From contig CAZWDU010000003.1 of NCBI GenBank assembly GCA_964632845.1, forward strand, positions 84,686 to 148,685: DNA of 64,000 bases, given 5' to 3'. This document shows, piece after piece, positions 1,061 through 21,811 of the stretch. Source of the DNA: an uncultured Candidatus Bathyarchaeia archaeon. Lineage in GTDB: Archaea; Thermoproteota; Bathyarchaeia; Bathyarchaeales; Bathycorpusculaceae. The translations under genes were made by a program, and so were the position numbers. Under the pieces are notes generated by a model, which saw nothing but the letters and a program-made list of their open reading frames with translations, had not been told where the DNA came from and ran no database searches. Position 1 is the first letter of the stretch. Each line of letters begins with the position of its first letter.

Positions 1061-1396
1061 TCAAGGTCGCTTCTGCGGAATGTACTGAAGCGAAATTGAC
1101 AATCGACTATGGCTCAAGCTATCACGCAAGTCATGATTCATACCCGAATCCTCAAGTCCAACCGTCGCATGACCCACGCGTTTAACTTTCCAGTTCTCAA
1201 GGTTTCCGCGTACAATCTGCGGGTTGCTAGTCACAATGAAGAATGGCATCCGAGTTTGCCTAGTGTAGAGTTCAGCGATGAAATTCAGCAACCGCTTGCC
1301 GATGCCGACGCCTTGGTAATCAGGTAACACAACCAGGCGGCTTACTCGGAAGTATCGGCTGCACATGTGAACGTGGATTACAGCGATGAATGCCAC
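1061..1396 (-). CDS. GNAT N-acetyltransferase domain; the frame is open upstream to nt 1543, so it is probably the C-terminal half of an ABC-ATPase/GNAT fusion
   Basis: GNAT motif A 'RLVVLPDYQGVGIGKRLL'. The upstream in-frame sequence 'VELRVYRCGHSAWKIFRQYHYLNGSLAPHCRCYVAIYHGVPVAF' reads as the missing GNAT N-terminal strands and has no start codon. Confidence 0.7.
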   Translation of the reverse strand: MAFIAVIHVHMCSRYFRVSRLVVLPDYQGVGIGKRLLNFIAELYTRQTRMPFFIVTSNPQIVRGNLENWKVKRVGHATVGLEDSGMNHDLRDSLSHSRLSISLQYIPQKRP

Positions 1397-1452
1397 AGGT
1401 ACACCATGGTAAATCGCGACGTAGCATCGGCAATGTGGCGCAAGGGAACCGT

Positions 1453-2139
1453 TTAGATAGTGATATTGTCGAAAAATTTTCCAAGCGGAGTGGCCGCACC
1501 GATAAACTCTGAGTTCAACGGGCGGCCTGACTCTTTTTTTCGGTCAAACACCATCGTGTCCGTGCAGAAAACCCAGTCAGGCTCCAACCAATCCACAACA
1601 TCATAATGGCACGTTACCGCAATGAACCGTTTTCCCTTTTGGCGCCGGACAGCTTTGCCGATGGCGAACGCGGCAACTTTCGCAACTTCACGATCAACCA
1701 CACTGGTGAACTCATCGAAAACAATCAATTCCTTCCCAGAACAAAGTGCGCGGGCGACGTCGACCCGCATCTTCTCACCCTGACTCAAGCAATCATAGCT
1801 CTTGAGCCAGTCAGGCGGCGAAGCAAACCCCACACTGCACAGAATTCGCGTGATCTCAGCCGTCCCAAGCTCCTCGGGAAAATCATCCAAAACGCAAGAA
1901 TGCGTATACTCAAAGCCTTTCACGTAGGCGTCGGGGAAAAGCTGCTTGGCTATGCTGGTTTTGCCTGTTCCGCTCCTGCCGACGATGACTCCAACTTGCC
2001 AGTCAAAGTCTTCAAAGGACAACTCGCCTCGAAAGCATTTCTCCAGCTTAACATCTGAAAGTGTGTATGAACCGACTACGCTCTGAGCTCTGAAACTCTG
2101 GGGTTGGTTCCAGCTTTTTACAAATTCAAAACGCGGCAT
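1453..2139 (-). CDS. compact ABC-type ATPase (228 aa as an ORF)
   Basis: Walker A 'GRSGTGKTS', signature-like 'LSQGEKMR', Walker B 'LIVFDEFTSVVD' and H-loop 'VTCHYD'. Confidence 0.8.
   Translation of the reverse strand: MPRFEFVKSWNQPQSFRAQSVVGSYTLSDVKLEKCFRGELSFEDFDWQVGVIVGRSGTGKTSIAKQLFPDAYVKGFEYTHSCVLDDFPEELGTAEITRILCSVGFASPPDWLKSYDCLSQGEKMRVDVARALCSGKELIVFDEFTSVVDREVAKVAAFAIGKAVRRQKGKRFIAVTCHYDVVDWLEPDWVFCTDTMVFDRKKESGRPLNSEFIGAATPLGKFFDNITI
1534..1540 (-). other. A7 run (A_AAA_AAA in the ATPase frame); a -1 shift here joins the ATPase frame to the GNAT frame
   Basis: Minus strand reads GAC CGA AAA AAA GAG. The -1 frame continues AGA GTC AGG CCG ... into the GNAT ORF without a stop. Confidence 0.5.
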
Positions 2140-6558: not shown

Positions 6559-7367
6559 TACTCGAACCCTCCCACGTCGTCGACAGCGAAAAAGTAGCTC
6601 TGAGCCTGCGACTTTGTCACAGCCAGTTTTATCATGTCAACTTGTCCCCAGTCCAGGTCGCCAAAATTGGCGAATGAAGTCTTGGGAATGCGAAGCCCAA
6701 GCCATTTGTCGGATTCAGTCAACAAGGCTGAAAAATCATAGGTTGCCGTGTGAACGCCTTCAGTAACAGAGACAACAGCACTGGTAATCTCTGAAATGTT
6801 ATCCATCAACCACCCGAAGCTTACCCAGTCAAAATCCTCAAGGTCGATGGCGTCCAAGGGTTCATACGTCACGTTTACTTCTTCAGATGCTTCAGCGCTG
6901 TGACTAACTTTTAGACAACCTAAACCCTCGAACGGAGTTGGAGCGTCAGAAGCAATAGCGACAACGGCGCCTATTGTCGAACTAGACCAGTCAGCGATTC
7001 CGTCGCACGCATTAACTTGCTTGAATAAGCTTTCCTTCAGCGATAAGCCATATCGGAGGATTTCCACGCCAATCTTGACAAGCTTAACCTCTTTGACAAA
7101 AACAACCGTCTTCACGGCGTCAGAGTCCAGTTCTAAGCTGTTTCCAATGCACTTGAACCGTTGGAACTGTTTGAAATCATCGTATCTGCTGGTTCCTCGT
7201 AGTATTCCAGAAAGCTCTATCGTAGAGGCAAGCTCTCCAAGGTCCTGACTGCCTGAACCGCGAGCAGTTGGCAAGTCGATGTCTTCAAGCCTTTTTCTAT
7301 CCGAAAAGCTGAGTCCATTAACGATGCCGAGATTTAGATCGCCAAGCGTAACTGTCATTTTGGTCAC
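6558..7367 (-). CDS. distal tail protein (Dit-like)
   Basis: 269 aa, immediately downstream of the TMP, with a 4-nt overlap at its start and a 1-nt overlap at its end. Confidence 0.5.
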   Translation of the reverse strand: MTKMTVTLGDLNLGIVNGLSFSDRKRLEDIDLPTARGSGSQDLGELASTIELSGILRGTSRYDDFKQFQRFKCIGNSLELDSDAVKTVVFVKEVKLVKIGVEILRYGLSLKESLFKQVNACDGIADWSSSTIGAVVAIASDAPTPFEGLGCLKVSHSAEASEEVNVTYEPLDAIDLEDFDWVSFGWLMDNISEITSAVVSVTEGVHTATYDFSALLTESDKWLGLRIPKTSFANFGDLDWGQVDMIKLAVTKSQAQSYFFAVDDVGGFE

Positions 7368-8446
7368 CTCGGCACAAAGAACGTCTGAGCCTTCAAGTCC
7401 GAGCGCACAATTCGGCTTAGATGCTCGTAGGCAGCTTCAGCAAATTCCCGCGGATCCTGAGCATTACTTAAACTGCCCTCTGGGAAATTAAACGTAGGTG
7501 CCAAGACCAAAGTTTGAGAACCAGCATTCCCAGAAACTCTATCCAATGGAATAACAGCCTCAGCTCCAGCCTCACCAATCAAAGCGACTGTGGGCTTGGT
7601 GACTATGCCTCCTTCCGCCAGCCCGATGAGTCCCTTAATTCCAGCGATACCGGCTCCAACGGCAGCCAAAATCACAGGCACAGCTACACCAAGCGTCACC
7701 GTACCCTGAAACGCCATCCAAGCAACAGTCGCAGCAACAACCGCAGCGATTCCAACCATCAACGCAGAAGCAATACCACGCAAATTTTCAGGAAGAGCCT
7801 TCAACAATGCGTCTCCAGCTAAGAAACCTCCGATGAAGGCGCCTACGCCGAGCGCTGCAGTCTTCGCACTGATGCCAACGTTGTTAATCCTGCTTGAAAC
7901 ATTGCTTAGCATTCCAGTGACGTCGGGAAAATTCTTCCAAACACGACTTAAACTATCAACCATAGAAATGCTCGTGGGAATAACCTGCAATGCGCTTCGC
8001 ATCATAGCCTCGTTCATGTTTCCCTGAACAACTTCCGCTTTTTCAACAGCGAGTTGATAGCGATCCTGAGCCAGCTTCAGGTCGTCAGCTGCGGCTTTAG
8101 CCTGGTCACTATCGGCTCCATACTTTTCAACGGCAACGTTTAATCGCCTCTGAGCATCCTCGACGCTGTTTAGGCTGCTCTTGACTTGGAGGTTGGCTCG
8201 GTCAAGCGAAACCTGCATATCCTGAACACGGTCAACCGCATCATAGAGGCTGAAGGCGCTCGTGGCAAGGTTGTTAAAGCCTAACGCAAGGTCCTTAGTG
8301 CTGGCTTCGCTTTGTTTCTGAGCCTCAGAAACTCGTTTTCCAGCATCCTCGACTTCTTTAAGGCTACCGTTGATTTTGGTTCCAGCGTCCGCTATGGTTT
8401 TACTTGCCTCATCCGTAGCTTTCAGAAGTACATTGATTTCGCTCAT
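7364..8446 (-). CDS. tail tape measure protein
   Basis: The N-terminal half is coiled-coil, the middle is Gly/Ala-rich and hydrophobic, and the C-terminal motif 'GGIVTKPTVALIGEAGAEAVIPL' is typical of TMPs. Confidence 0.8.
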   Translation of the reverse strand: MSEINVLLKATDEASKTIADAGTKINGSLKEVEDAGKRVSEAQKQSEASTKDLALGFNNLATSAFSLYDAVDRVQDMQVSLDRANLQVKSSLNSVEDAQRRLNVAVEKYGADSDQAKAAADDLKLAQDRYQLAVEKAEVVQGNMNEAMMRSALQVIPTSISMVDSLSRVWKNFPDVTGMLSNVSSRINNVGISAKTAALGVGAFIGGFLAGDALLKALPENLRGIASALMVGIAAVVAATVAWMAFQGTVTLGVAVPVILAAVGAGIAGIKGLIGLAEGGIVTKPTVALIGEAGAEAVIPLDRVSGNAGSQTLVLAPTFNFPEGSLSNAQDPREFAEAAYEHLSRIVRSDLKAQTFFVPR

Positions 8447-8452
8447 AACAGT

Positions 8453-8979
8453 CTACTTCGTTTTAGACCATTCCAGCCAACCTGCCAAGAAGCTGAGCTG
8501 GAAAGGAGTTAGCCCAGCGATGTACTCCAGCGAGTAGCCATACTCGTGTGCTATCAAGCCGAAGAGCTGGGCGTCTTTATTGGCTGTAATCCACTCAGCT
8601 GTTGCTGTCGCAAAAAAAGCGGAAACCTCTTCGTCAACCGCTCAGTCAAAATCGCCTTAATATCAAAAGGCATAGCTTCAAAGTCTTCATACGTAAAATC
8701 TGGACTCGCTTTTTGGAGCATCGCATGTACAACACGGTAGGCTTGCTCTTCTTCGTCTTTGACTTCTGCGAGGTTTAACGCCTTGAACTCCCTGCTGGTC
8801 AAATAGCCATATCGGATTTCGCCAAGGTCCTTATCCATGAGCGTTTGAATCTGCTTTGCATTCTCGGCGATTGCTTTAGGGTCGAAGAGTCTCGCGTTCT
8901 TAGCATCGACTTCCTTCTGCTCTGTCTCGTGCTCTTCCAGCTTCTGCTTAAACTCCGCAACCTTGTGTTCTTCAGTCAT
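8453..8979 (-). CDS. predicted -1 frameshift product (gpGT-like) of the tail assembly chaperone
   Basis: After T_TTT_TTG the -1 frame reads ATATAEWITANKDAQLFGLIAHEYGYSLEYIAGLTPFQLSFLAGWLEWSKTK and stops at TAG 8453-8455, 7 nt before the TMP ATG. Confidence 0.65.
8554..8979 (-). CDS. tail assembly chaperone (gpG-like, 0-frame product)
   Basis: Acidic 141-aa ORF between the tail tube gene and the TMP, containing a slippery heptamer near its 3' end. Confidence 0.7.
   Translation of the reverse strand: MTEEHKVAEFKQKLEEHETEQKEVDAKNARLFDPKAIAENAKQIQTLMDKDLGEIRYGYLTSREFKALNLAEVKDEEEQAYRVVHAMLQKASPDFTYEDFEAMPFDIKAILTERLTKRFPLFLRQQQLSGLQPIKTPSSSA
8611..8617 (-). other. slippery heptamer T_TTT_TTG (X_XXY_YYZ) in the chaperone 0 frame
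   Basis: Minus strand reads CCG CTT TTT TTG CGA; the plus strand shows caaaaaaag at 8611-8619. Confidence 0.65.
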
Positions 8980-8985
8980 GGCTCA

Positions 8986-9387
8986 TCACGTCAGAGTTCC
9001 TGGCTGTAGGTCGTCGCCTTCGCCTTCCATAGACTGCATCACAACCCCAGTTTGCTTCTGGTCAAGTTTCCAGTTGGTGAAGACAACGTTTTTCACGGTG
9101 AGCTTAGGCTTGCCTGTTCCAGCGCCCGCAGGATCCAACTCGATGTCCACCGGGTCGCCTGTCAAAACGACCGTGGCATACGTATTATCGACGTACATGC
9201 TTTCCACTGAGACTTTGTAGCTCTGGTTGCCATCTTCGAGGATGGATGGTTTGTTGCTTCCTAAAGCGTAGTCTTTGACGAGTTCGACGCCGATGGATAC
9301 GGAGACGCCTTTTGCGTAGCCAATCGCCGTTCCAGCTTTCTTGACAACGCCATTTCTTCCAACTATTGGAGTACTCATTTTTTTCAA
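8986..9387 (-). CDS. major tail (tube) protein
   Basis: 133 aa, beta-rich, placed directly before the chaperone/TMP pair. Confidence 0.7.
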   Translation of the reverse strand: MKKMSTPIVGRNGVVKKAGTAIGYAKGVSVSIGVELVKDYALGSNKPSILEDGNQSYKVSVESMYVDNTYATVVLTGDPVDIELDPAGAGTGKPKLTVKNVVFTNWKLDQKQTGVVMQSMEGEGDDLQPGTLT

Positions 9388-13764: not shown

Positions 13765-15096
13765 TCAAGTTCCGGCTGCAACCAGATTATTCATAAAGGC
13801 GCCCTTCAAATCTTCAGGTGAGTAGCCGAGCTTCTTGCTGGCTGCCGCAGGACTGATGATGCCATGCTCAATCTCCCTGCATAGTTTCTCGCTTAGTCGG
13901 TACACATCTTCAGCTTTCAAGGGACGCCAAACCAACCGCGCCATCTCAGGCACACCGGCAACCTTGAATACGTTAGCCTGATAGAACCGCTTTAACCTAC
14001 GCTGGTCATCTCTGACTTCAGCCTCTAACAATCGCTCTTGATAGTCAGCTGTAGCCATCGTTGTGGTTCCACCGACACCGAGAGCAATTTCGGGTACGCC
14101 TAAGCCGCCGATAAGTTCGTTCTCGAAATGCTTCAGCACAGGCTCAATCATCTGGCGGCTGTTTCCGATGTTTTTGTAGACTTCCTCGATTTTCAGGATA
14201 GTGCCGTCATTGTAGATGTCGCTTCCGTCAGGTCGCGTCTCCAATTGGTTTTTAACTTTGTTGAAATCCGTTTCGCTTATGTCATGGTCAGCGTCGCCCA
14301 AATCAATCTGAAGCAAAGGATGAGCAAGACGACGTGCAAGCCATGGAAGCTTCTTCTCCATGTACAAAATCGCTTTAAGGCAGGGCAGAATGTTGCGGAG
14401 ACTGCTTGTTCCGAAGCGGTCCCATGGACGGCAGTTGAACTTGAGATGCCAGATTTCTTCAGGTGGGTACTCGACCTTTTTGCCGACGGCTTCGGTGTAA
14501 ACGTATTGCTCCAGCGTTTTCTTGTCTGAAGACAGCTTAATGCCCATGAGCATAGGGTTTAACGGGTCCCAGATGTCGCCGTTTTTGTGCCAGTACATGT
14601 TCCCGAAAATCTTCGCATAAAGCGAACCATCACGCAAATATTCTTCGTCAATGATGGCGAGAGATGCCTTCGCTTTGTCGCTGATTTGATTTTTGCCGCC
14701 GAGGTCTATGTCGTAACCGTTCTGCCAAATCATCGCGTGCTTAACCATTACTGCTCGGTTCACGTAGGGCACGAGGTCGAAAGCATCCTGATAATCCGCA
14801 TAATCGTTAAAGTCTTCGGGCACGGTTACGCCGCTGGAAGGCAAGTAGTTGACCTTAGCCATCTGCGACAGGTTCAACGTTTGAACGCTTTCACTAATCA
14901 GCTTGGCGCCTTGTAGGATTCCGCGAATGCTCGTAGTAGAAGCTGCGTTCTTCATCTCGGTTGAAGCGACAAGATAGTTCTGCGATTCGCTTGCACCGAA
15001 ACTGAGAAGGCACTTTCTAGTCTTTGGCTTAGAAAGCTCTGTTACTTTCTTCTCTAGGTCTCGAATGCGTTTTCCAGCGGTAAACGGATTAAACAT
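13765..15096 (-). CDS. portal protein
   Basis: 443 aa, downstream of the large terminase and upstream of the protease and MCP genes. Confidence 0.75.
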   Translation of the reverse strand: MFNPFTAGKRIRDLEKKVTELSKPKTRKCLLSFGASESQNYLVASTEMKNAASTTSIRGILQGAKLISESVQTLNLSQMAKVNYLPSSGVTVPEDFNDYADYQDAFDLVPYVNRAVMVKHAMIWQNGYDIDLGGKNQISDKAKASLAIIDEEYLRDGSLYAKIFGNMYWHKNGDIWDPLNPMLMGIKLSSDKKTLEQYVYTEAVGKKVEYPPEEIWHLKFNCRPWDRFGTSSLRNILPCLKAILYMEKKLPWLARRLAHPLLQIDLGDADHDISETDFNKVKNQLETRPDGSDIYNDGTILKIEEVYKNIGNSRQMIEPVLKHFENELIGGLGVPEIALGVGGTTTMATADYQERLLEAEVRDDQRRLKRFYQANVFKVAGVPEMARLVWRPLKAEDVYRLSEKLCREIEHGIISPAAASKKLGYSPEDLKGAFMNNLVAAGT

Positions 15097-15588: not shown

Positions 15589-16917
15589 TTACTTCTCCAA
15601 ATCTCCAAAAGCTACCTTTCCGATACTACGACGTTGCCCAGAGAGCACCGCGAAAGCTCCACTGGCACTGTCTACTTGGTCGTCGTGTTCGCCTTCAGGG
15701 AAAACCTCAGCCTCATCCAAGAACGCGTTAATCCAATCTCCCCTTACGAGGAACACGTTTTTCCTTTCCGCACTAGCACTCAAAGGACCGGCACGTGTCA
15801 CTTTGTCGCCCGTGCTTCGTGTTCCATGATAGTTGAAGCCAACAAGAACTTCCCGAGCGTAGTGGTCGCTGGCGATTTTGCCGCTGGAACCGCCTTCTTC
15901 TTCCATCCAGACCTGAACAGCGCGTCCATCAACCTCAGCCGTTTGCCGAACACGGTCTTCAGTTTGCTTAGGCGAACCGCGAAAACGGCAGATGTCAAAG
16001 ATGAAGAGCTGGCCATCCTTCAACCCTGCAAGTGTTCCGCTTGTCCAGTCAGGGTCTTTGCCCTTCTCCACTTCAGTTGACGCTAAGTCCCAGAACCGAA
16101 CCTTCCGAATCCCAGCAGGAACATCAGACGGCTCGACAATGCGGTCTTCGAACCATTCGCGGCGAAACATCGTGCCCAACTGAGCATCCCAGCAACCCTC
16201 AAGAATCTGCTTCCGACGCACAGGATCCAACTGAAGAAGGCTCTGACGATAGGTTGCTTGGTCAAGCTCAGGATTGTCCTCAAGCCTTGCAGGAATGAAC
16301 GCTCGACCATGACGTTTGCCCTCGATAAGGAAACGCTGCTTCACCCAATTGTGTCCAAGTCCTCCGGGATTTGTGGCACACCGCATCCGCAACGGCACAG
16401 CCATCCCGACTGGACGGCGAAGACGGCTAAACAGGAACACGTACTGAAGCTCAAACCACTCAGTAACTTCGTCAACGCCAATGAATTGAAACTCTGCACT
16501 CCTATACCGCTGCTCATCTCCAACACTTTCGCAGTAGCCGAACACGAGTCTGGCGCCAGAGGGAAAATGCCACGTATGGTTCACTTGGTCCCAACGAGCT
16601 GCGGTCCCGTCTAACCATAGGTGCGAGAGGTCCATCAGCGCTTTCGGCAACGACAAGTCAGGATAGGTTCGCCTTAGGAGCAAAGCCGAGTAGCCAGGAA
16701 TGTTCACGTATTGCAACGCAGCAGAAAGCAAGGCAACGGTTTTGCCTCCGCCACCCGCTCCGCCATACATGCACTCAAGGACGTCGCAGAGTAAGAATTG
16801 AGCTTGAGGGGACCTGCCGTCACTTGTGATTAGCGGCTTCCACTTTATCCACTTGTTCTCCAGAACCGCCCGCCTGAACAACTCTCGTTGAAACGTCTCC
16901 TTTGAAGAGGAACTCAT
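15589..16917 (-). CDS. terminase large subunit
   Basis: Walker A 'GGAGGGGKT', 'LLLRRTYPDL', Walker B 'FIGVDEVTEW', and nuclease-domain Asp motifs 'FWDLAS' and 'HDDQVDSA'. I chose the ATG at 16917; the ORF is open to 16974. Confidence 0.9.
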   Translation of the reverse strand: MSSSSKETFQRELFRRAVLENKWIKWKPLITSDGRSPQAQFLLCDVLECMYGGAGGGGKTVALLSAALQYVNIPGYSALLLRRTYPDLSLPKALMDLSHLWLDGTAARWDQVNHTWHFPSGARLVFGYCESVGDEQRYRSAEFQFIGVDEVTEWFELQYVFLFSRLRRPVGMAVPLRMRCATNPGGLGHNWVKQRFLIEGKRHGRAFIPARLEDNPELDQATYRQSLLQLDPVRRKQILEGCWDAQLGTMFRREWFEDRIVEPSDVPAGIRKVRFWDLASTEVEKGKDPDWTSGTLAGLKDGQLFIFDICRFRGSPKQTEDRVRQTAEVDGRAVQVWMEEEGGSSGKIASDHYAREVLVGFNYHGTRSTGDKVTRAGPLSASAERKNVFLVRGDWINAFLDEAEVFPEGEHDDQVDSASGAFAVLSGQRRSIGKVAFGDLEK

Positions 16918-17470
16918 AACGTCTAAGAAGCTCAGTGGTTTCGGACAATTCGACGTTCTTCTGCACCTGTACAACGTTGTTGATTTTCACTTGAGGCTCC
17001 ATGTTCACTCTCGGAAGCAACCCGAGGCTCTGACGTAGCTCAACCTCAATCTTCACAACTGCTGCTAATGTGCGAGCTGCGCCAACCTTCGCATTGTCGT
17101 TATCGGCACCCTGCATAAGCCTAATCGCGTTTTCTCTCGCCAACTCCAGAAACTTCAGCACGTCTTTACCGTCATCCTGAGCGCTCCAGTTTGCCCAAAT
17201 GAATGGCTCCCACTTAGCTCGGCGGTCATAATCCCGACGTAGAGCAAACTCTGTCACTTTCTTATGGATGCCTTGGCTCTCGTAATTCTCAGTCAGTTGC
17301 TTGGCCAGAGCTCTCAAAGTCACGCTATTGACTGCACCACCGTAGTGCAAAAGCAAGAGGCGTTTGCGCCTATAGAACAGATCCAAATCCATCTGCACAA
17401 AGGGCTTATCCTTTGAGGGTATGGGCTGTTCTGGGACAGCGCTGTCCGAACTCTGTTCATTAGAACTCAT
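16820..17470 (-). CDS. putative terminase small subunit
   Basis: Assigned only by position immediately upstream of, and overlapping, TerL. Confidence 0.45.
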   Translation of the reverse strand: MSSNEQSSDSAVPEQPIPSKDKPFVQMDLDLFYRRKRLLLLHYGGAVNSVTLRALAKQLTENYESQGIHKKVTEFALRRDYDRRAKWEPFIWANWSAQDDGKDVLKFLELARENAIRLMQGADNDNAKVGAARTLAAVVKIEVELRQSLGLLPRVNMEPQVKINNVVQVQKNVELSETTELLRRYEFLFKGDVSTRVVQAGGSGEQVDKVEAANHK

Positions 17471-17472
17471 TT

Positions 17473-17583
17473 CTAAGTAGCCTTCTCGAATTCCTCAGCT
17501 TTAGCGCAAGCTAATCTTGCGTAGCAGTCTCTACAGTCGGTAATCTTTTGCTCGGTTGCGCCCCAGTAACAAGGAAGAGCCAT
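17473..17583 (-). CDS. possible 36-aa Cys-rich mini-protein
   Basis: My translation is MALPCYWGATEQKITDCRDCYARLACAKAEEFEKAT. Its stop lies 2 nt before the TerS ATG. Confidence 0.3.
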   Translation of the reverse strand: MALPCYWGATEQKITDCRDCYARLACAKAEEFEKAT

Positions 17584-17601
17584 AGCGTAGCCTCGTAGTA
17601 A

Positions 17602-17751
17602 CTAAGGTTGATTTTTCGCTGCGATTGTTTGCATAGTAGCTATTCGGTTTCTGATTGTTGCAAGTATGTCTTCGGCAACGATGTCCTGAAGCTCAACAGG
17701 CAATGAAACGATTGGCTTCAAGGCTAAGTCTAATTCTTTCTTAAAGTTCAA
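17602..17751 (-). CDS. possible 49-aa protein
   Basis: TTG start after AAGGAG; translation is (M)NFKKELDLALKPIVSLPVELQDIVAEDILATIRNRIATMQTIAAKNQP. Confidence 0.25.
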   Translation of the reverse strand: MNFKKELDLALKPIVSLPVELQDIVAEDILATIRNRIATMQTIAAKNQP

Positions 17752-17782
17752 ACAAACATCTCCTTTCAAATTAGCCGAGTCT

Positions 17783-18112
17783 TCAGTGGAACACGCCCAT
17801 CCCGATGGCCGTCAAAATTGACACCAGACTGCAGATAACGAAAACTAGAGTAGCCGTGATTTTCTGGTCAATCGCCTTCTGCCTTGACTCTAACGCAGCA
17901 ATCTGTTTCTGATGGATGTTGCACCGTTCATCAATGCCCTTCCGATATTCCATAAAAACGTCTGAGCGAAGAAACTCGGCTGCTGCAAGAGGCACGTCGT
18001 CTTCATGCTTCTTCAACAAGCTGAAATGCACCCTCTCCACGGCTATCACATAACACGAGACCTTTCTCAATTGTCTCGGGAACTGCACCCTTCTGCAACG
18101 CCTCACCACCAA
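17783..18112 (-). CDS. hypothetical protein with a C-terminal TM anchor (true start probably internal, near 18020)
   Basis: Coiled 'QKQIAALESRQKAIDQKI' followed by the TM segment 'TATLVFVICSLVSILTAIGMGVF'. Confidence 0.4.
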   Translation of the reverse strand: MVVRRCRRVQFPRQLRKVSCYVIAVERVHFSLLKKHEDDVPLAAAEFLRSDVFMEYRKGIDERCNIHQKQIAALESRQKAIDQKITATLVFVICSLVSILTAIGMGVFH

Positions 18113-18245
18113 AGCAGACTAGCAAATGCTCAACGACGTCGTCGCGGCTCAATTGGCTTACTGATTCGCTCCGCTGTCGATCCCAGAAAGCATTCTCACG
18201 AATGTAGACTCTAGCTAAGGCTGCTTGACTTCTTTTATGAACCAT
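18003..18245 (-). CDS. hypothetical protein (80 aa from the ATG at 18245)
   Basis: ORF beginning MVHKRSQAALARVYIREN... with no motif. Confidence 0.35.
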   Translation of the reverse strand: MVHKRSQAALARVYIRENAFWDRQRSESVSQLSRDDVVEHLLVCFGGEALQKGAVPETIEKGLVLCDSRGEGAFQLVEEA

Positions 18246-18371
18246 ACTAAAGCACTCTTCCTGCTTTTGCCTGCAGGTGGCGCGTTCCCCCGAAAACTCA
18301 CCACTAAAGTATGGAGAATCCCTTGACCATAAGAAATATTTAAGCACTTGACATAAGACCATCAAATAGAC

Positions 18372-19310
18372 TTAGGCAAACTCTCCGATTATCGATTGCA
18401 CAACAAGGAAGATGACATAAACAGTAACGAGCAGTGCTCCATCTTTTCTATCCAAAACGCCATCCCGAGACAAAGCGTAGACAAGCACTGCGGACACTAT
18501 CATAATTACGCCAGTTGAAAACGGAGAAAAAAGAAGAGCGGGCTTAATCGGCTGAATAAGAGTGATAATGCCTATAGTCAACATGGAATCTGCAAGAACG
18601 TTGCCCAAAATATTTCCCAATCCGAGATCGCCATGCTGCTTTTTGGACGCACGAAGAGCAAAAGCTAACTCAGGCAAGCACGTTCCAACTGCCACGACAG
18701 CTCCAACCAAAAACAACGGCAAACCAAGCGATAAACTCAACTCTTGCGAACTATCAGTAATAAGCGTCGCCCCTGCAAACAGAATTGCTAAACTAACCGC
18801 CAAAACCAAGAATTCAAAAACAAACCGAAGTTTCTGTCGTTTACCAGTCACTGCAGGTCCATCCCGTTTTGTCCTTAGCAAATTAAACCAGTAAAGCATG
18901 AATGCCAGCAACAAAATGACTCCGTCTATGCGTGAGATGTCGCCGTCAACGAACAATAAAACAGGAAGGACAACAGCCAAAAGAGACAGGCGAACGTTCT
19001 TTATTACAGAAGAATTAAGAGTCAGTTTTCCAGCAACCAACACTAAAACTCCGATAACTAAGGTTAAATCGGCAACGTTTGAGCCTAAGATAAGTCCGAA
19101 ACCAAGCGATGAGGTTCCTTCAACAGCCGACAGGACACCAATGGCCATTTCTGGAAGAACAGCGATTATGCCCGCGATCACAAAACTTGTGACAAATTCG
19201 GATAGACGAAAATATTTCGCCAAATTCAGAAGCCGTTTTATCGCTTCATCTGCGCTGAAGACTACGATAGCTAGTCCAACGCAGATTAGCAGGATAGGAA
19301 CTAAAACCAT
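18372..19310 (-). CDS. CaCA-family Na+/Ca2+ exchanger (YrbG / NCX_Mj-like)
   Basis: About 10 TM segments. Alpha-repeat signatures are 'AVLPEMAIG...GSNVADLTLVIG' and 'GTCLPELAFAL...GNILGNVLADSMLTIG'. 'ISRIDGVILL' matches the NCX_Mj layout. Confidence 0.8.
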   Translation of the reverse strand: MVLVPILLICVGLAIVVFSADEAIKRLLNLAKYFRLSEFVTSFVIAGIIAVLPEMAIGVLSAVEGTSSLGFGLILGSNVADLTLVIGVLVLVAGKLTLNSSVIKNVRLSLLAVVLPVLLFVDGDISRIDGVILLLAFMLYWFNLLRTKRDGPAVTGKRQKLRFVFEFLVLAVSLAILFAGATLITDSSQELSLSLGLPLFLVGAVVAVGTCLPELAFALRASKKQHGDLGLGNILGNVLADSMLTIGIITLIQPIKPALLFSPFSTGVIMIVSAVLVYALSRDGVLDRKDGALLVTVYVIFLVVQSIIGEFA

Positions 19311-19441
19311 TGTATATCAATGGGGAAAGGAAACCACTTTATTTAAACCTTTATTCCTTCTCGAAAAAGACTCAAGCTTCTTTTATGCTGAAGCCGATGA
19401 TGCGCGATATTACCCTAAAAGTTCCTTCTTTTCAAACAGAC

Positions 19442-19603
19442 TTATTGGTCGCTCCACAAGTCATTCTTTGCTCGGTTCAGCTTCTTGGCGATTCCGGCAA
19501 AATGCAGCACAAACCGCCCGAAACAGGTCCTGCAATAACCTGATTTGTTTCCTCGACTGATAGGGTCACCGCATTCACGGCATCGTCGAGGCTGCTTACC
19601 CAT
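19442..19603 (-). CDS. zinc-ribbon protein (53 aa from the ATG at 19603)
   Basis: 'CRECGDPISRGNKSGYCRTC' has two CxxC pairs. An ATGGGTAA overlap links it to the upstream gene's stop. Confidence 0.5.
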   Translation of the reverse strand: MGKQPRRCRECGDPISRGNKSGYCRTCFGRFVLHFAGIAKKLNRAKNDLWSDQ

Positions 19604-20051
19604 CGGTTCCGATCTCCTCTCTGGTTTTTCCCCAAATCTCAAACCCAAAATCCGTGAAAACCCACTTCTTACCATGCTTCTCAATCAAGTGCTTGCCGAA
19701 AACATCACCGCACTTGCGATTAACCCGGTTGACAATCCGAAGTATCTTATGTTTCTCAAGCTTGAACGACTTCAAATCTGAAGCTATCTTCTTGGCTAAA
19801 ACGCCGCTGCCTGACTCGTAAATGGTTGAGACAACAGCAAAATCCATATCACTTTCGCAGCAGACCTTCTCAATAAAAGGACGTTCAAAATGGAAGTACC
19901 AGCTTAAACCCTGGAAGAGAATCCGCTGCATCTGCTCAATACGCTCTAAGCGGGCTTCGATGCGGTTCATTCGCTGAATTTCATACTTGTGTTTACCAAC
20001 TTTTTCAGCCTGAGAACGCCTCTTGGGTACAGTTGATTCGCTATTTTCCAT
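19596..20051 (-). CDS. hypothetical protein, possibly a wHTH regulator
   Basis: ATG at 20051 (MENSEST...). It is basic, with 'LKSFKLEKHKILRIVNRVNRK' as a helix-like segment. Confidence 0.4.
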   Translation of the reverse strand: MENSESTVPKRRSQAEKVGKHKYEIQRMNRIEARLERIEQMQRILFQGLSWYFHFERPFIEKVCCESDMDFAVVSTIYESGSGVLAKKIASDLKSFKLEKHKILRIVNRVNRKCGDVFGKHLIEKHGKKWVFTDFGFEIWGKTREEIGTDG

Positions 20052-20296
20052 GCCCATCCATCCCAAACAGGAAAAACGCAACATCAACACGTTTAGAATT
20101 TAACAGTCGGCAACCTACACCTGTCACCTTCAAAACACTGCAACCTGAAAAAACCTCTAAAAGGCGCTGTTTCACGCAAAATACGTCTAAATTGAGCTTA
20201 TGTAGGGGCATGGAAAAACGCAGTTGGGCATGAACACTAACTGCCGAAAACAGGTTACTACGAGTGTAGTAAGTCTTAGAATCTTCGTAGTAAACG

Positions 20297-21424
20297 CTAA
20301 GAGACATAGCCTCTTCCTCCTTCGGCAATAATTTTTGGCGATTCATTTTCACCTTGAGGCTTGGCAGCATCTAAACCGAAGAGTTTACCGAGAGTATCGG
20401 CAAGGCGTTCATTGGCGGTAACTAATCGCTCAATCAACTGCGTTTTCTCAACGTTGTTTTTAACCAAGACCGCAACGTAAGAACAGAGAGAGTCAATCTT
20501 CAATTCTAAGCTTTCAAGAGTTAGAGGAAAATCAACTGCAGCTCTGCCAAGATTCTTTCCAGCGTCGTAAGCCACAGGAAAAGAAGCAGCAATAGCCGCA
20601 TGACGCTTATCCGCGTATTCCAAATGCGGACGCCCACTGAGAATGTCCTGCTTATCATGCGTAGGACTAGCATCTAACGCCCTGTCATCGTCAACCTCGA
20701 CGGTTCCAGCTTCAATCCAAGCATGACATTCTGGCCTGTAAACTCTAAACCGAGGCTTACGCAACGATTCACCAAAATCGCTTAGAAGCATCCCGAACCG
20801 TTCTTCCAAAACAAGCCGAACGCGTTCGACAACACGTGCAGCATCCATCTCCAACTCGTCTACATTGAAGCCCTTCATTTGCCCTGGATGAATAATTACT
20901 GTAGGCTCCACACCCAAATTCAAAACAACCCGCACAGTCCCTAATCGAACGCCGAGCTTAACCCAGTTCCGAGGCTCGCCGAGTTTACGCCAATCTAAAG
21001 CAGTTTGCTCTCTTCGAAGCACCTTAAACTTAACCGCATGATCTTCAAGCAGCACGGGCAATCGAACACGCTCGTCACTACCTGTGAGAAGTTTTGAACC
21101 GTAAGCCGTAAGCTCATAATACTTGACTATGCCGTCGACCTTTAGCCTTAAAGCCCCTGCCCTGAGGAACTTGTTTTTCCAATAAGTCACGTTGCTCTTG
21201 CAGCAACCAGCTACACGAACCGCCTCACTAGCGACGCCGTCAGCTCCAAGAACGCCGAGAATGTCTATTGCTTTCTGAGGTAATGGCTCTAAGAGTTCAA
21301 AACTGTCATTGAACTTTTGAACTGGTTCTTTTGAACTGGGTTCAATGAGTCGACGACGCTCAACCAAAAAAATCAGCTCCTCGCTCTGCTCCTCAACGCT
21401 TCTTTCCGAGTGGGGCACGAGCAA
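20297..21424 (-). CDS. HTH-domain protein, candidate replication or regulatory protein (375 aa)
   Basis: N-terminal 'AIDILGVLGADGVASEAVRVAGCCKSNVTYWKNKFLRAG' is HTH-like. It is the first gene of the train. I see no P-loop and no R..HxxR..Y recombinase pattern. Confidence 0.45.
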   Translation of the reverse strand: MLVPHSERSVEEQSEELIFLVERRRLIEPSSKEPVQKFNDSFELLEPLPQKAIDILGVLGADGVASEAVRVAGCCKSNVTYWKNKFLRAGALRLKVDGIVKYYELTAYGSKLLTGSDERVRLPVLLEDHAVKFKVLRREQTALDWRKLGEPRNWVKLGVRLGTVRVVLNLGVEPTVIIHPGQMKGFNVDELEMDAARVVERVRLVLEERFGMLLSDFGESLRKPRFRVYRPECHAWIEAGTVEVDDDRALDASPTHDKQDILSGRPHLEYADKRHAAIAASFPVAYDAGKNLGRAAVDFPLTLESLELKIDSLCSYVAVLVKNNVEKTQLIERLVTANERLADTLGKLFGLDAAKPQGENESPKIIAEGGRGYVS

Positions 21425-21680
21425 AAGAGACTAGGATCTGAAAAGCCAAAACATTCCAAATCGTCAGACCGGCACTTCCGACCTAAAGATCCCTCAAACA
21501 GTTTAGGACCTGCAAACTCACAGGAACCGCTGGGCACCACTTCAGAATTGACAGGCTCTGGAAACTTGTAGTTCTCCAGTAACTTGGAGCCCATCACGAG
21601 CTACCTCCAAAAAACCGACTAAAAATGCTAGAAAAAAGAAAAAGGGGAAAATAAAGAACAGTATAAAGGCGCGTGTGGAG

Positions 21681-21757
21681 TGGCGCCGCCGAAAGGACTT
21701 GAACCTTTGACCGACTGGTTAACAGCCAGCCGCTCTACCTGGCTGAGCTACGGCGGC
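21681..21757 (-). tRNA. tRNA-Asn (GTT), CCA encoded
   Basis: GCCGCCGTAGCTCAGCCAGGTAGAGCGGCTGGCTGTTAACCAGTCGGTCAAAGGTTCAAGTCCTTTCGGCGGCGCCA, with a 7-bp acceptor stem, anticodon loop CTGTTAA and T-loop GGTTCAAGTCC. Confidence 0.9.
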
Positions 21758-21811
21758 ACACCAAGTGCTTATGCCAGTCTGAGCTCCACAAAAGTATTTA
21801 AATTTAGCCAT

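What the first reader, a model, noticed from the sequence alone, without database searches (positions are those of the whole stretch)
8453..8979. Classical gpG/gpGT-type -1 programmed frameshift in the tail chaperone
The heptamer T_TTT_TTG (8611-8617, minus strand) lies near the 3' end of the ORF between the tube gene and the TMP, and it is in the correct 0-frame phase (CCG CTT TTT TTG CGA). The -1 frame then stays open for 55 codons of protein-like sequence (ATATAEWITANKDAQLFGLIAHEYGYSLEYIAGLTPFQLSFLAGWLEWSKTK). It ends 7 nt before the TMP start codon. This is exactly the geometry conserved in bacterial siphophages. It supports both the tail-module annotation and conservation of this recoding mechanism on archaeal ribosomes.
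Basis: partly seen in the sequence, partly recalled or inferred. Interest (0 to 1): 0.65.

Follow-up and report, generated by a model that had tools for sequence, protein, structure and literature searches.

The report
Tail chaperone frameshift in archaeal provirus
A provirus in a Bathyarchaeia (archaeal) genome makes its tail-assembly chaperone in two versions by a programmed -1 ribosomal slip at T_TTT_TTG, the trick long known from phages lambda and P2 and already predicted for haloarchaeal viruses; it is real and strongly conserved but of a known kind.

Summary
On the minus strand, ORF 8979..8554 (141 aa, "G") lies between a tube-like gene and a tape-measure-like gene. It contains T_TTT_TTG (8617..8611) in X_XXY_YYZ phase. 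The -1 frame opens only 10 codons upstream and runs 52 codons past the slip site to TAG 8455..8453, 6 nt before the next ATG.

Comparative evidence decides the case. In 84 distinct related loci (T peptide down to 29% pairwise identity), T is always in the -1 frame and an in-phase canonical heptamer is always present: T_TTT_TTN in 82, A_AAT_TTA in one, C_CCT_TTA in one. The first heptamer base covaries with the next two. T has dN/dS of about 0.18 in the -1 frame against 1.1-1.9 in the other frames. It has no usable start codon and is never annotated as a protein.

No stimulatory RNA structure is conserved. G/GT matches no known chaperone family by sequence, and fold matches are only suggestive. 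The host is archaeal (Bathyarchaeia).

Verdict: a well-supported new member of the G/GT frameshift class, using the same heptamer as phage P2 E/E+E'. A second conserved recoding candidate, a poly-A site joining an ATPase to a GNAT domain, was found at 1540..1534.

The parts
8554..8979 (-). G: 0-frame tail assembly chaperone ORF (141 aa, ATG 8979, TGA 8556..8554)
   Evidence: It has 40 homologues of about 140 aa, none with a Pfam domain. The AF2 model of the core has pLDDT 81 and pTM 0.71. Fold hits are weak, but the named ones are almost all tail assembly chaperones.
8611..8617 (-). Slippery heptamer T_TTT_TTG in X_XXY_YYZ phase (0-frame codons CTT TTT TTG)
   Evidence: An in-phase heptamer sits at the homologous position in 84 of 84 distinct loci: TTTTTTG 31, TTTTTTA 26, TTTTTTT 16, TTTTTTC 9, AAATTTA 1, CCCTTTA 1. 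Conservation is far beyond codon usage. It is the same heptamer as in P2 E/E+E' (PMC3091744).
8453..8611 (-). T: -1 frame extension (52 aa plus TAG 8455..8453), reached only by slipping. The -1 frame is open from 8641.
   Evidence: dN/dS is 0.19 in the -1 frame (0.18 in the T-only part) against 1.1-1.9 in the other frames. There is no start codon before or near the slip site in 78 of 84 loci. No counterpart exists among 5.8 billion predicted proteins. The consensus is wi..n..AQ.iG.IAHEYGY.L.yi..LtpfQ..FL..W..w.
8453..8979 (-). GT: predicted 175-aa frameshift fusion (...RFPLFL|ATATAEW...)
   Evidence: The AF2 model is all-alpha in the T part and of low confidence there.
8986..9387 (-). Upstream neighbour: tail tube-like protein (133 aa)
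   Evidence: PF18906 Phage_tube_2 at 2.7e-5 and 24.4 bits, below the cut-off of 27, plus phrog_290. The homologue in L009 scores 30.7 bits, above the cut-off.
7364..8446 (-). Downstream neighbour: tape measure-like protein (360 aa); its ATG lies 6 nt after the T stop
   Evidence: PHROG tape-measure hits at 1e-7 to 1e-3. It shares N- and C-terminal motifs with the gene at the same position in L002, which matches PF10145 at 96.5 bits. In L004, L005, L006, L009, L010 and L013 the T stop overlaps this gene's ATG.

Best explanation
This is a programmed -1 ribosomal frameshift in the tail assembly chaperone gene of a siphovirus-like provirus of a Bathyarchaeia archaeon.

Most ribosomes translate G (141 aa) to its 0-frame stop. 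A minority slip while tRNA-Phe occupies UUU in the P site and tRNA-Leu occupies UUG in the A site. Both tRNAs re-pair one base back on U_UUU_UUG. Those ribosomes then read 52 further codons in the -1 frame, giving a 175-aa GT fusion that ends just before the tape measure gene.

By analogy with lambda gpG/gpGT and P2 E/E+E', the shared G part would coat the tape measure protein. The T part would recruit the tube protein, and the slip frequency would set a fixed G:GT ratio.

Shown here: the sequence anatomy, its conservation, covariation within the heptamer, selection on T, the absence of any independent start for T, the synteny, and the archaeal host.

Inferred: that ribosomes actually slip, how often they do, and what G and T bind.
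For: 1. Anatomy. The heptamer is in phase, and the -1 frame opens only 10 codons upstream and closes 6 nt before the next gene.

2. Conservation. T was detected in 113 of 116 sources, which collapse to 84 distinct overlap zones from independent metagenomes. T is in the -1 frame in all of them. An in-phase X_XXY_YYZ heptamer sits at the homologous place in 84 of 84.

3. Covariation diagnostic of tandem tRNA slippage.
   - The codon before the run ends in T in 82 of 82 T-type sites, across six amino acids: GGT 31, AGT 16, CGT 13, AAT 10, GAT 7, CTT 5.
   - In these same genes GGT is only 13% of Gly codons and CGT only 12% of Arg codons.
   - In the two loci where XXY changed, X1 changed with it: CTA AAT TTA in L060 and GGC CCT TTA in L074.
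   - TTT is 48% of Phe codons in the G bodies but is used in 82 of 82 P-site codons.

4. Selection. dN/dS of T is 0.19 in the -1 frame against 1.1 and 1.5 in the other two frames. In the overlap segment the -1 frame gives 0.34 and G's own frame about 1.0.

5. No independent expression. 78 of 84 loci have no ATG, GTG or TTG from the opening of the -1 frame to 8 codons past the slip. Among 22 loci inspected in detail, four have no start codon anywhere in T. T alone has no homologue among 5.8 billion predicted proteins, so it is never called as a gene and never fused in-frame.

6. Coupling geometry. The T stop overlaps the ATG of the tape measure gene in six of the relatives inspected.

7. Synteny tube - G/T - tape measure, within a module that also has a portal and a large terminase (phrog_979, 4e-97).

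8. Precedent. P2 E/E+E' uses the identical TTTTTTG and has no downstream hairpin (PMC3091744). -1 frameshifting has been demonstrated in an archaeon for fucA1 (PMC1616953, PMC8211752).
Against: - There is no direct evidence for the GT protein: no proteomics and no reporter assay.
- No stimulatory element was found. Single-sequence folds downstream of the site have z-scores between -1 and +1, and RNAalifold predicts no pairs. Efficiency is therefore probably low and cannot be estimated.
- G/GT has no hit in Pfam, PHROGs or PDB sequences.
- Fold matches to tail assembly chaperones never reach E <= 0.001 (best 0.018). Nothing was found in the PDB fold library.
- The site is a homopolymer (T7 in the window), so polymerase slippage cannot be excluded for this particular locus from sequence alone.
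Confidence: 0.85

Rival explanations
1. Transcriptional slippage. RNA polymerase stutters on the T run, a fraction of mRNAs gain one U, and GT is then made by standard translation of those edited transcripts.
For: The slip site is a homopolymer: T7 in the window and T6 or T7 in 82 of 84 loci. The same virus group has a second junction at poly-A runs of 7-9, which looks more like a polymerase-slippage site. The protein outcome would be almost identical.
Against: - The run is only six Ts in 61 of 84 loci. By general knowledge this is below the 8-9 nt typical of efficient slippage sites.
- Two loci have only three Ts yet keep a canonical, in-phase X_XXY_YYZ (A_AAT_TTA and C_CCT_TTA). That pattern is required for tandem tRNA re-pairing and is irrelevant to polymerase stuttering.
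- When there is an extra T, it falls on either side of a core that stays fixed in phase.
Confidence: 0.07
2. T is a separate small protein made by its own internal initiation or by re-initiation. The overlap with G is ordinary gene packing.
For: Overlapping genes in the -1 frame are common in this window. Some T ORFs contain TTG or GTG codons.
Against: - No start codon lies before or near the slip site in 78 of 84 loci, and those present lie at least 18 codons into the conserved peptide.
- Among 22 loci inspected in detail, four T ORFs have no start codon at all.
- Peptide conservation begins right at the slip site.
- No gene caller ever produced a T protein in 5.8 billion sequences.
- This model does not explain the heptamer conservation and X1 covariation.
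Confidence: 0.03
3. Artefact or decay: a homopolymer sequencing or assembly error, or a frameshift mutation in a dead provirus, has split what is really one G-T gene.
For: The window comes from a metagenome-type contig, and homopolymers are error-prone. Some relatives are clearly decayed: L056/L057 have a truncated G.
Against: The same -1 arrangement, with a 0-frame stop 5-32 codons downstream, occurs in 84 distinct loci from many independent samples and assemblers. No in-frame G-T fusion was found anywhere.
Confidence: 0.01
4. The recoding is real, but the gene is not a tail assembly chaperone. G/GT would have another role, such as a scaffold or tail completion protein.
For: There is no sequence match to any Phage_TAC family or PHROG. 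Fold matches are below significance.
Against: The gene sits invariantly between the tube and tape measure genes. Its size and two-product architecture match the class. Named fold hits are almost all tail assembly chaperones, and one is a protein of the archaeal siphovirus Drs3 at probability 0.99. By general knowledge (Xu, Hendrix and Duda 2004), the class is defined by position and frameshift rather than by sequence.
Confidence: 0.04

Closest known systems
Bacteriophage P2 E / E+E' tail chaperone frameshift (Christie et al. 2002, as summarised in PMC3091744)
   Same: The slippery heptamer TTTTTTG is identical. Both shift by -1, and both have an extension with no start codon of its own. Both lie between the major tail gene and the tape measure gene. 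Neither has a downstream hairpin (PMC3091744).
   Different: P2 is a bacterial myovirus. E is 91 aa and E+E' is 142 aa, against 141 and 175 aa here. No sequence similarity was detected. The host here is an archaeon, and the product has not been demonstrated.
Bacteriophage lambda gpG / gpGT (Levin, Hendrix and Casjens 1993; Xu, Hendrix and Duda 2004, 2013, 2014; summarised in PMC5009743)
   Same: Siphovirus-type gene order tube - G/T - tape measure. G is about 140 aa, the slip is near the 3' end of G, and the T extension ends at the tape measure gene. The presumed logic is a fixed G:GT ratio.
   Different: Lambda uses G_GGA_AAG, whereas this family uses T_TTT_TTN. There is no detectable sequence homology. 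Here the 0-frame tail after the slip is long (18 codons) and evolves without constraint.
Predicted G/GT frameshifts of haloarchaeal siphoviruses (HVTV-1, HCTV-1/2/5, Hardycor1; PMC5009743, PMC7911831, PMC8211752)
   Same: These are archaeal tailed viruses with a -1 frameshift in the chaperone gene pair upstream of the tape measure gene. As here, the evidence is from sequence only.
   Different: The hosts are Halobacteria and the heptamers are G_GGA_AAC/G/T and A_AAA_AAC. Here the host is Bathyarchaeia (Thermoproteota) and the heptamer is U-rich. The support here is much broader: 84 loci, heptamer covariation and dN/dS. The two Bathyarchaeia virus surveys checked do not mention a frameshift.
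Saccharolobus (Sulfolobus) solfataricus fucA1 -1 frameshift (PMC1616953)
   Same: It is a -1 frameshift on archaeal ribosomes at a homopolymer-type heptamer (A_AAA_AAT).
   Different: It is a cellular gene whose frameshift restores a full-length enzyme rather than setting a ratio of two products. It has been verified experimentally, whereas this case has not.

Membership tests
G/GT-type tail assembly chaperone with programmed -1 frameshift (Xu, Hendrix and Duda 2004 class) | The gene pair lies between the major tail (tube) gene and the tape measure gene | tested here: met
   Window order on the minus strand: tube-like 9387..8986, G/T 8979..8453, tape-measure-like 8446..7364. The same order is seen in the relatives whose flanks were fetched. 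There the tube homologue passes the PF18906 cut-off (L009) and the downstream gene matches PF10145 at 96.5 bits (L002).
G/GT-type tail assembly chaperone with programmed -1 frameshift (Xu, Hendrix and Duda 2004 class) | A second ORF overlaps the 3' end of the first in the -1 frame and has no initiation codon of its own | tested here: met
   T is in the -1 frame in all 113 loci where it was detected. There is no start codon near the slip site in 78 of 84 distinct loci. T is never called as a protein.
G/GT-type tail assembly chaperone with programmed -1 frameshift (Xu, Hendrix and Duda 2004 class) | A canonical slippery heptamer X_XXY_YYZ lies in phase within the overlap | tested here: met
   T_TTT_TTG at 8617..8611. 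The feature is present in 84 of 84 distinct loci, and X1 covaries with X2X3 in the two loci that lack the T run.
G/GT-type tail assembly chaperone with programmed -1 frameshift (Xu, Hendrix and Duda 2004 class) | The extension is a real coding sequence, conserved and under purifying selection | tested here: met
   dN/dS is 0.19 in the -1 frame against 1.1-1.5 in the other frames. The motif AQ..G.IAHEYGY.L.YI..LTPFQ..FL..W is conserved down to 29% pairwise identity.
G/GT-type tail assembly chaperone with programmed -1 frameshift (Xu, Hendrix and Duda 2004 class) | Two proteins, G and GT, are made from one start in a fixed ratio | not testable with these tools
   This needs proteomics or a reporter assay on archaeal ribosomes.
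G/GT-type tail assembly chaperone with programmed -1 frameshift (Xu, Hendrix and Duda 2004 class) | G binds the tape measure protein, T binds the tube protein, and neither is in the virion | not testable with these tools
Described tail assembly chaperone protein families (Pfam Phage_TAC_*, PHROG tail chaperone families, solved structures) | Significant sequence similarity to a curated family | tested here: not met
   Pfam, PHROGs and a PDB profile search gave no family for G or GT. Homologues carry no Pfam domain.
Described tail assembly chaperone protein families (Pfam Phage_TAC_*, PHROG tail chaperone families, solved structures) | Fold similarity to known tail assembly chaperones | tested here: inconclusive
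   The G-core model has pLDDT 81. The best BFVD hit has E = 0.018, and TM-scores normalised to the query reach 0.62. Named hits are almost all tail assembly chaperones, plus Drs3 V5T690 at probability 0.99, but none reaches E <= 0.001. The PDB fold search found nothing.
Transcriptional slippage sites | A long homopolymer (typically 8-9 or more, by general knowledge), with no requirement for codon phase | tested here: not met
   The run is T6 in 61 of 84 loci and T7 in 21. It is only T3 in L060 and L074, which nonetheless keep an in-phase X_XXY_YYZ.

The most novel reading that the evidence does not exclude
This group of Bathyarchaeia tailed viruses may rely on two separate, conserved homopolymer recoding sites. 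One is the U_UUU_UUN chaperone frameshift, in a chaperone family with no detectable similarity to any described one. The other appears undescribed in the literature searched: a poly-A (A7-A9) -1 junction that fuses an ABC-type ATPase to a GNAT acetyltransferase domain (window 2139..~1064, site 1540..1534). That protein is a single ORF in many bacterial phages but is also split by -1 in Streptococcus and Oenococcus phages. If both sites are programmed, these viruses would be a natural system for comparing ribosomal and polymerase slippage in an uncultivated archaeal lineage.
Probability: 0.4. Interest if true: 0.6.

Novelty: new member of a known kind. Interest (0 to 1): 0.35.

Why it matters
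The finding confirms that the tail chaperone frameshift, one of the most conserved recoding events in tailed phages, extends to viruses of Bathyarchaeia. This is an abundant, almost uncultivated archaeal class whose virus surveys do not mention it.

It has practical use for annotation. The roughly 100-nt "empty" gap after the chaperone gene in these viruses is coding, and the G/T pair marks the tube and tape measure genes even where profile searches fail.

It supplies comparative evidence for tandem-slippage -1 frameshifting in Archaea: 84 loci with natural heptamer variants and X1 covariation. Only one archaeal case, fucA1, has been shown experimentally.

It does not change how the mechanism is understood.

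Tried and rejected
- **Family searches for G and GT.** Pfam, PHROGs and a PDB sequence-profile search gave no family.
- **Fold searches.** The full GT model gave nothing in the PDB. BFVD gave only sub-threshold hits for both the full model and the G core.
- **T alone against the protein collection.** No hits. This is informative as a negative result.
- **Downstream stimulatory RNA.** Single-sequence folding gave z-scores from -1 to +1. RNAalifold gave zero pairs. I reject a conserved hairpin or pseudoknot.
- **Upstream Shine-Dalgarno-like stimulator.** GAGG lies 9-12 nt upstream in the window but is not conserved among relatives (read). I reject it.
- **Structure prediction with GT fusions from other loci.** I used the window fusion plus database G homologues instead, so the T part had no alignment depth and low confidence.
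- **Host naming by cluster look-up.** No names were returned. The aCPSF1 search resolved it.
- **"Integrase" next to tRNA-Asn.** The 375-aa ORF 21424..20297 has no Pfam or NCBIfam hit, so I make no integrase claim.
- **Significance from the single sequence.** The background scan shows the geometry alone is not rare, so I do not rest the case on it.
- **Literature search for the ATPase-GNAT recoding.** Nothing found.

Full report
**1. The observation**

On the minus strand, ORF 8979..8554 encodes a 141-aa protein, here called G. Its 0-frame codons around 8619..8608 are CTT TTT TTG CGA. T_TTT_TTG (8617..8611) is therefore an X_XXY_YYZ heptamer in the correct phase.

The 0 frame runs 18 more codons to TGA 8556..8554. 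The -1 frame is closed at 8644..8642 and so opens only 10 codons before the slip point. After the slip it encodes 52 residues (ATATAEW...SKTK) up to TAG 8455..8453. The next ATG, at 8446, follows after a 6-nt spacer.

Everything else is as described.

A background scan shows that the geometry alone is not rare in one sequence. The window has about 100 in-phase heptamers in 104 ORFs of at least 100 aa, and four of them sit near an ORF end with a long -1 continuation. The case has to rest on comparative evidence.

**2. Context**

The neighbours form a tailed-virus morphogenesis module on the same strand:
- large terminase 16974..15589 (phrog_979, 4e-97);
- portal 15096..13765;
- a tube-like protein 9387..8986 (PF18906, 24.4 bits, just under the cut-off);
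- G/T;
- a 360-aa ORF 8446..7364 with PHROG tape-measure hits;
- distal tail proteins.

In relatives, the tube homologue passes the Pfam threshold (L009, 30.7 bits). The gene after G/T in L002 is a clear tape measure protein (PF10145, 96.5 bits). The window's 360-aa protein shares its N-terminal motif and its C-terminal "GG.V..PT.ALIGE" motif.

The rest of the window is archaeal chromosome: aCPSF1 at 901 bits and an archaeal-type PorA. The closest named aCPSF1, at 95% identity, is from a Candidatus Bathyarchaeota MAG. The closest genome hit for G is a Bathyarchaeia MAG.

**3. Conservation**

G has 40 database homologues of about 140 aa. All cover only the G part of a GT query, and none has a Pfam domain. 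In the contigs fetched for these homologues with a called downstream gene, an uncalled gap of about 100 nt follows G.

I collected loci from genomes, IMG/VR and metagenomes. I then ran a frame-agnostic pipeline that locates T by tblastn and asks which frame holds the upstream ORF. The results were:
- T was found in 113 of 116 sources. The other three are cut by contig ends.
- These collapse to 84 distinct, untruncated overlap zones.
- T is in the -1 frame relative to a long upstream ORF in all of them.
- No in-frame G-T fusion exists.
- Every locus has an in-phase X_XXY_YYZ heptamer at the homologous position: TTTTTTG 31, TTTTTTA 26, TTTTTTT 16, TTTTTTC 9, A_AAT_TTA 1 (L060) and C_CCT_TTA 1 (L074).
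- The 0-frame tail after the heptamer is 5-32 codons long (median 18).
- The -1 extension is 48-108 aa long (median 57).

**4. Nucleotide-level constraint**

The codon preceding the run ends in T in all 82 T-type sites, although it encodes six different amino acids: GGT 31, AGT 16, CGT 13, AAT 10, GAT 7 and CTT 5. In the bodies of the same genes, GGT is only 13% of Gly codons, CGT 12% of Arg and AGT 19% of Ser. TTT is 48% of Phe codons, yet the P-site codon is TTT in 82 of 82.

In the two loci where the XXY codon is not TTT, the preceding base changed with it: CTA AAT TTA and GGC CCT TTA. So X1 = X2 = X3 is maintained with three different bases. That is the signature expected if two tRNAs must re-pair one base back. 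Neither protein constraint nor codon bias explains it.

**5. Selection on T**

In a 12-locus codon alignment, the extension has dN/dS of 0.19 in the -1 frame (0.18 in the T-only part). The same DNA read in the other two frames gives 1.1 and 1.5.

In the segment that overlaps G's tail, the -1 frame gives 0.34 and G's own frame about 1.0. T is therefore a real, constrained peptide. The last 18 residues of G look unconstrained.

The T consensus across the 84 loci is wi..n..AQ.iG.IAHEYGY.L.yi..LtpfQ..FL..W..w. Pairwise identity goes down to 29%.

**6. T cannot be expressed on its own**

- 78 of 84 loci have no ATG, GTG or TTG from the opening of the -1 frame to 8 codons past the slip site.
- Among the 22 loci inspected in detail, four have no start codon anywhere in T.
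- The T ORF has no counterpart among 5.8 billion predicted proteins.
- In L004, L005, L006, L009, L010 and L013 the T stop overlaps the ATG of the tape measure gene.

**7. Mechanism**

No stimulatory RNA element is conserved. Folds of the 60 nt downstream of the site have z-scores between -1 and +1. RNAalifold predicts no pairs, and the six Ts are the only invariant bases at the start of the alignment.

This matches phage P2 E/E+E', which uses the identical TTTTTTG and lacks a hairpin (PMC3091744). It suggests low-efficiency slippage driven by the heptamer alone.

Transcriptional slippage is the main rival because the site is a homopolymer. However, the run is only T6 in 61 of 84 loci. L060 and L074 have only T3 and still keep an in-phase canonical heptamer. 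I put ribosomal -1 frameshifting at about 0.85 and transcriptional slippage at about 0.07.

**8. Protein identity**

G and GT match no Pfam, PHROG or PDB sequence family.

An AF2 model of the G core (pLDDT 81, pTM 0.71) shows a beta-hairpin packed on helices. Foldseek against viral models gives no hit at E <= 0.001; the best is 0.018. Named hits are almost all tail assembly chaperones, and a protein of the archaeal siphovirus Drs3 scores probability 0.99. The PDB fold search is empty.

Membership of the G/GT class therefore rests on position and recoding architecture, which is how the class is defined. It does not rest on homology to a described chaperone family.

**9. Comparison with what is known**

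- G/GT frameshifting is classical in lambda and P2.
- It has been predicted in haloarchaeal siphoviruses with G_GGA_AAN or A_AAA_AAC heptamers (PMC5009743, PMC7911831, PMC8211752).
- The only experimentally shown archaeal -1 frameshift is fucA1 (PMC1616953, PMC8211752).
- Two surveys of Bathyarchaeia viruses and proviruses do not mention a frameshift.
- The large archaeal Caudoviricetes survey (PMC8651126) uses the word "frameshift" only once, in a reference title about cobalt chelatase.

This is a new, very well supported member of a known kind.

**10. Side finding**

In the same provirus, the ABC-type ATPase ORF 2139..1453 carries an in-phase A_AAA_AAA at 1540..1534. The -1 frame opens one codon upstream and encodes a GNAT acetyltransferase domain ending near 1064.

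In 32 of 34 IMG/VR relatives the GNAT part is likewise in the -1 frame, across a poly-A run of 7-9. One relative with A10 is in-frame, and one is +1 across a T9 run.

In many bacterial phages the homologue is a single ORF. In Streptococcus and Oenococcus phages it is again split by -1.

This looks like a second conserved recoding site, arising by polymerase or ribosomal slippage. A literature search found no description of it.

Noticed in passing
window 1064-2139 (minus strand); site 1534-1540; relatives L118-L151, L116, L117: A second recoding candidate. The ABC-type ATPase ORF 2139..1453 has an in-phase A_AAA_AAA 26 codons before its stop, and the -1 frame continues into a GNAT acetyltransferase domain (PF00583, 3e-9). 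In 32 of 34 IMG/VR relatives the GNAT part is also in the -1 frame across a poly-A run of 7-9. One relative with A10 is in-frame, and one is +1 across a T9 run. The homologue is a single ORF in many bacterial phages but is split by -1 in Streptococcus and Oenococcus phages. The cause could be transcriptional slippage or a -1 frameshift. No description was found in the literature searched.
   Followed up: partly
window 8554-8610 (minus strand) and homologous segments of L001-L013: The last 18 residues of G, encoded after the heptamer in the 0 frame, evolve with dN/dS of about 1.0, while the overlapping -1 frame is constrained (0.34). The C-terminal tail of G therefore looks like a by-product of the T coding sequence rather than a functional segment.
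   Followed up: yes
L008 (JAWBPJ010000142, MAG labelled Candidatus Thorarchaeota); L056/L057: L008 has an intact G/T pair at the end of a contig. It is followed by unrelated genes on the opposite strand (a penicillin amidase) instead of a tape measure gene, and the bin is labelled as an Asgard archaeon. This could be a remnant, a misassembly or a mis-binned contig. L056/L057 carry a G truncated to 33 codons with T running on for 108 codons, which looks like a decayed copy.
   Followed up: no
window 17000-21800: The provirus boundary is unclear. The 375-aa ORF 21424..20297 next to tRNA-Asn (21681-21757) has no Pfam or NCBIfam hit, so it is not a recognisable integrase. A Na/Ca exchanger gene (19310..18372, PF01699) lies between the terminase region and the tRNA. 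The element may end near 17.5-18.3 kb and may run off the left end of the window.
   Followed up: no
window 7364-8446; L002 4541-6676; L004 658-2199; L007 4550-6037; L013 4533-5606: Among relatives that share the same G/T, the tape measure gene ranges from 357 to 711 aa. At about 0.15 nm per residue (general knowledge), that implies roughly a two-fold range in tail length. The window's 360 aa would give a short tail of about 54 nm.
   Followed up: no
window 19596-20090 (minus strand), heptamer at 19632: An in-phase G_GGA_AAA lies 9 codons before the stop of a 164-aa ORF, with a 49-aa continuation in the -1 frame. It is probably an ordinary gene overlap. It was not examined.
   Followed up: no
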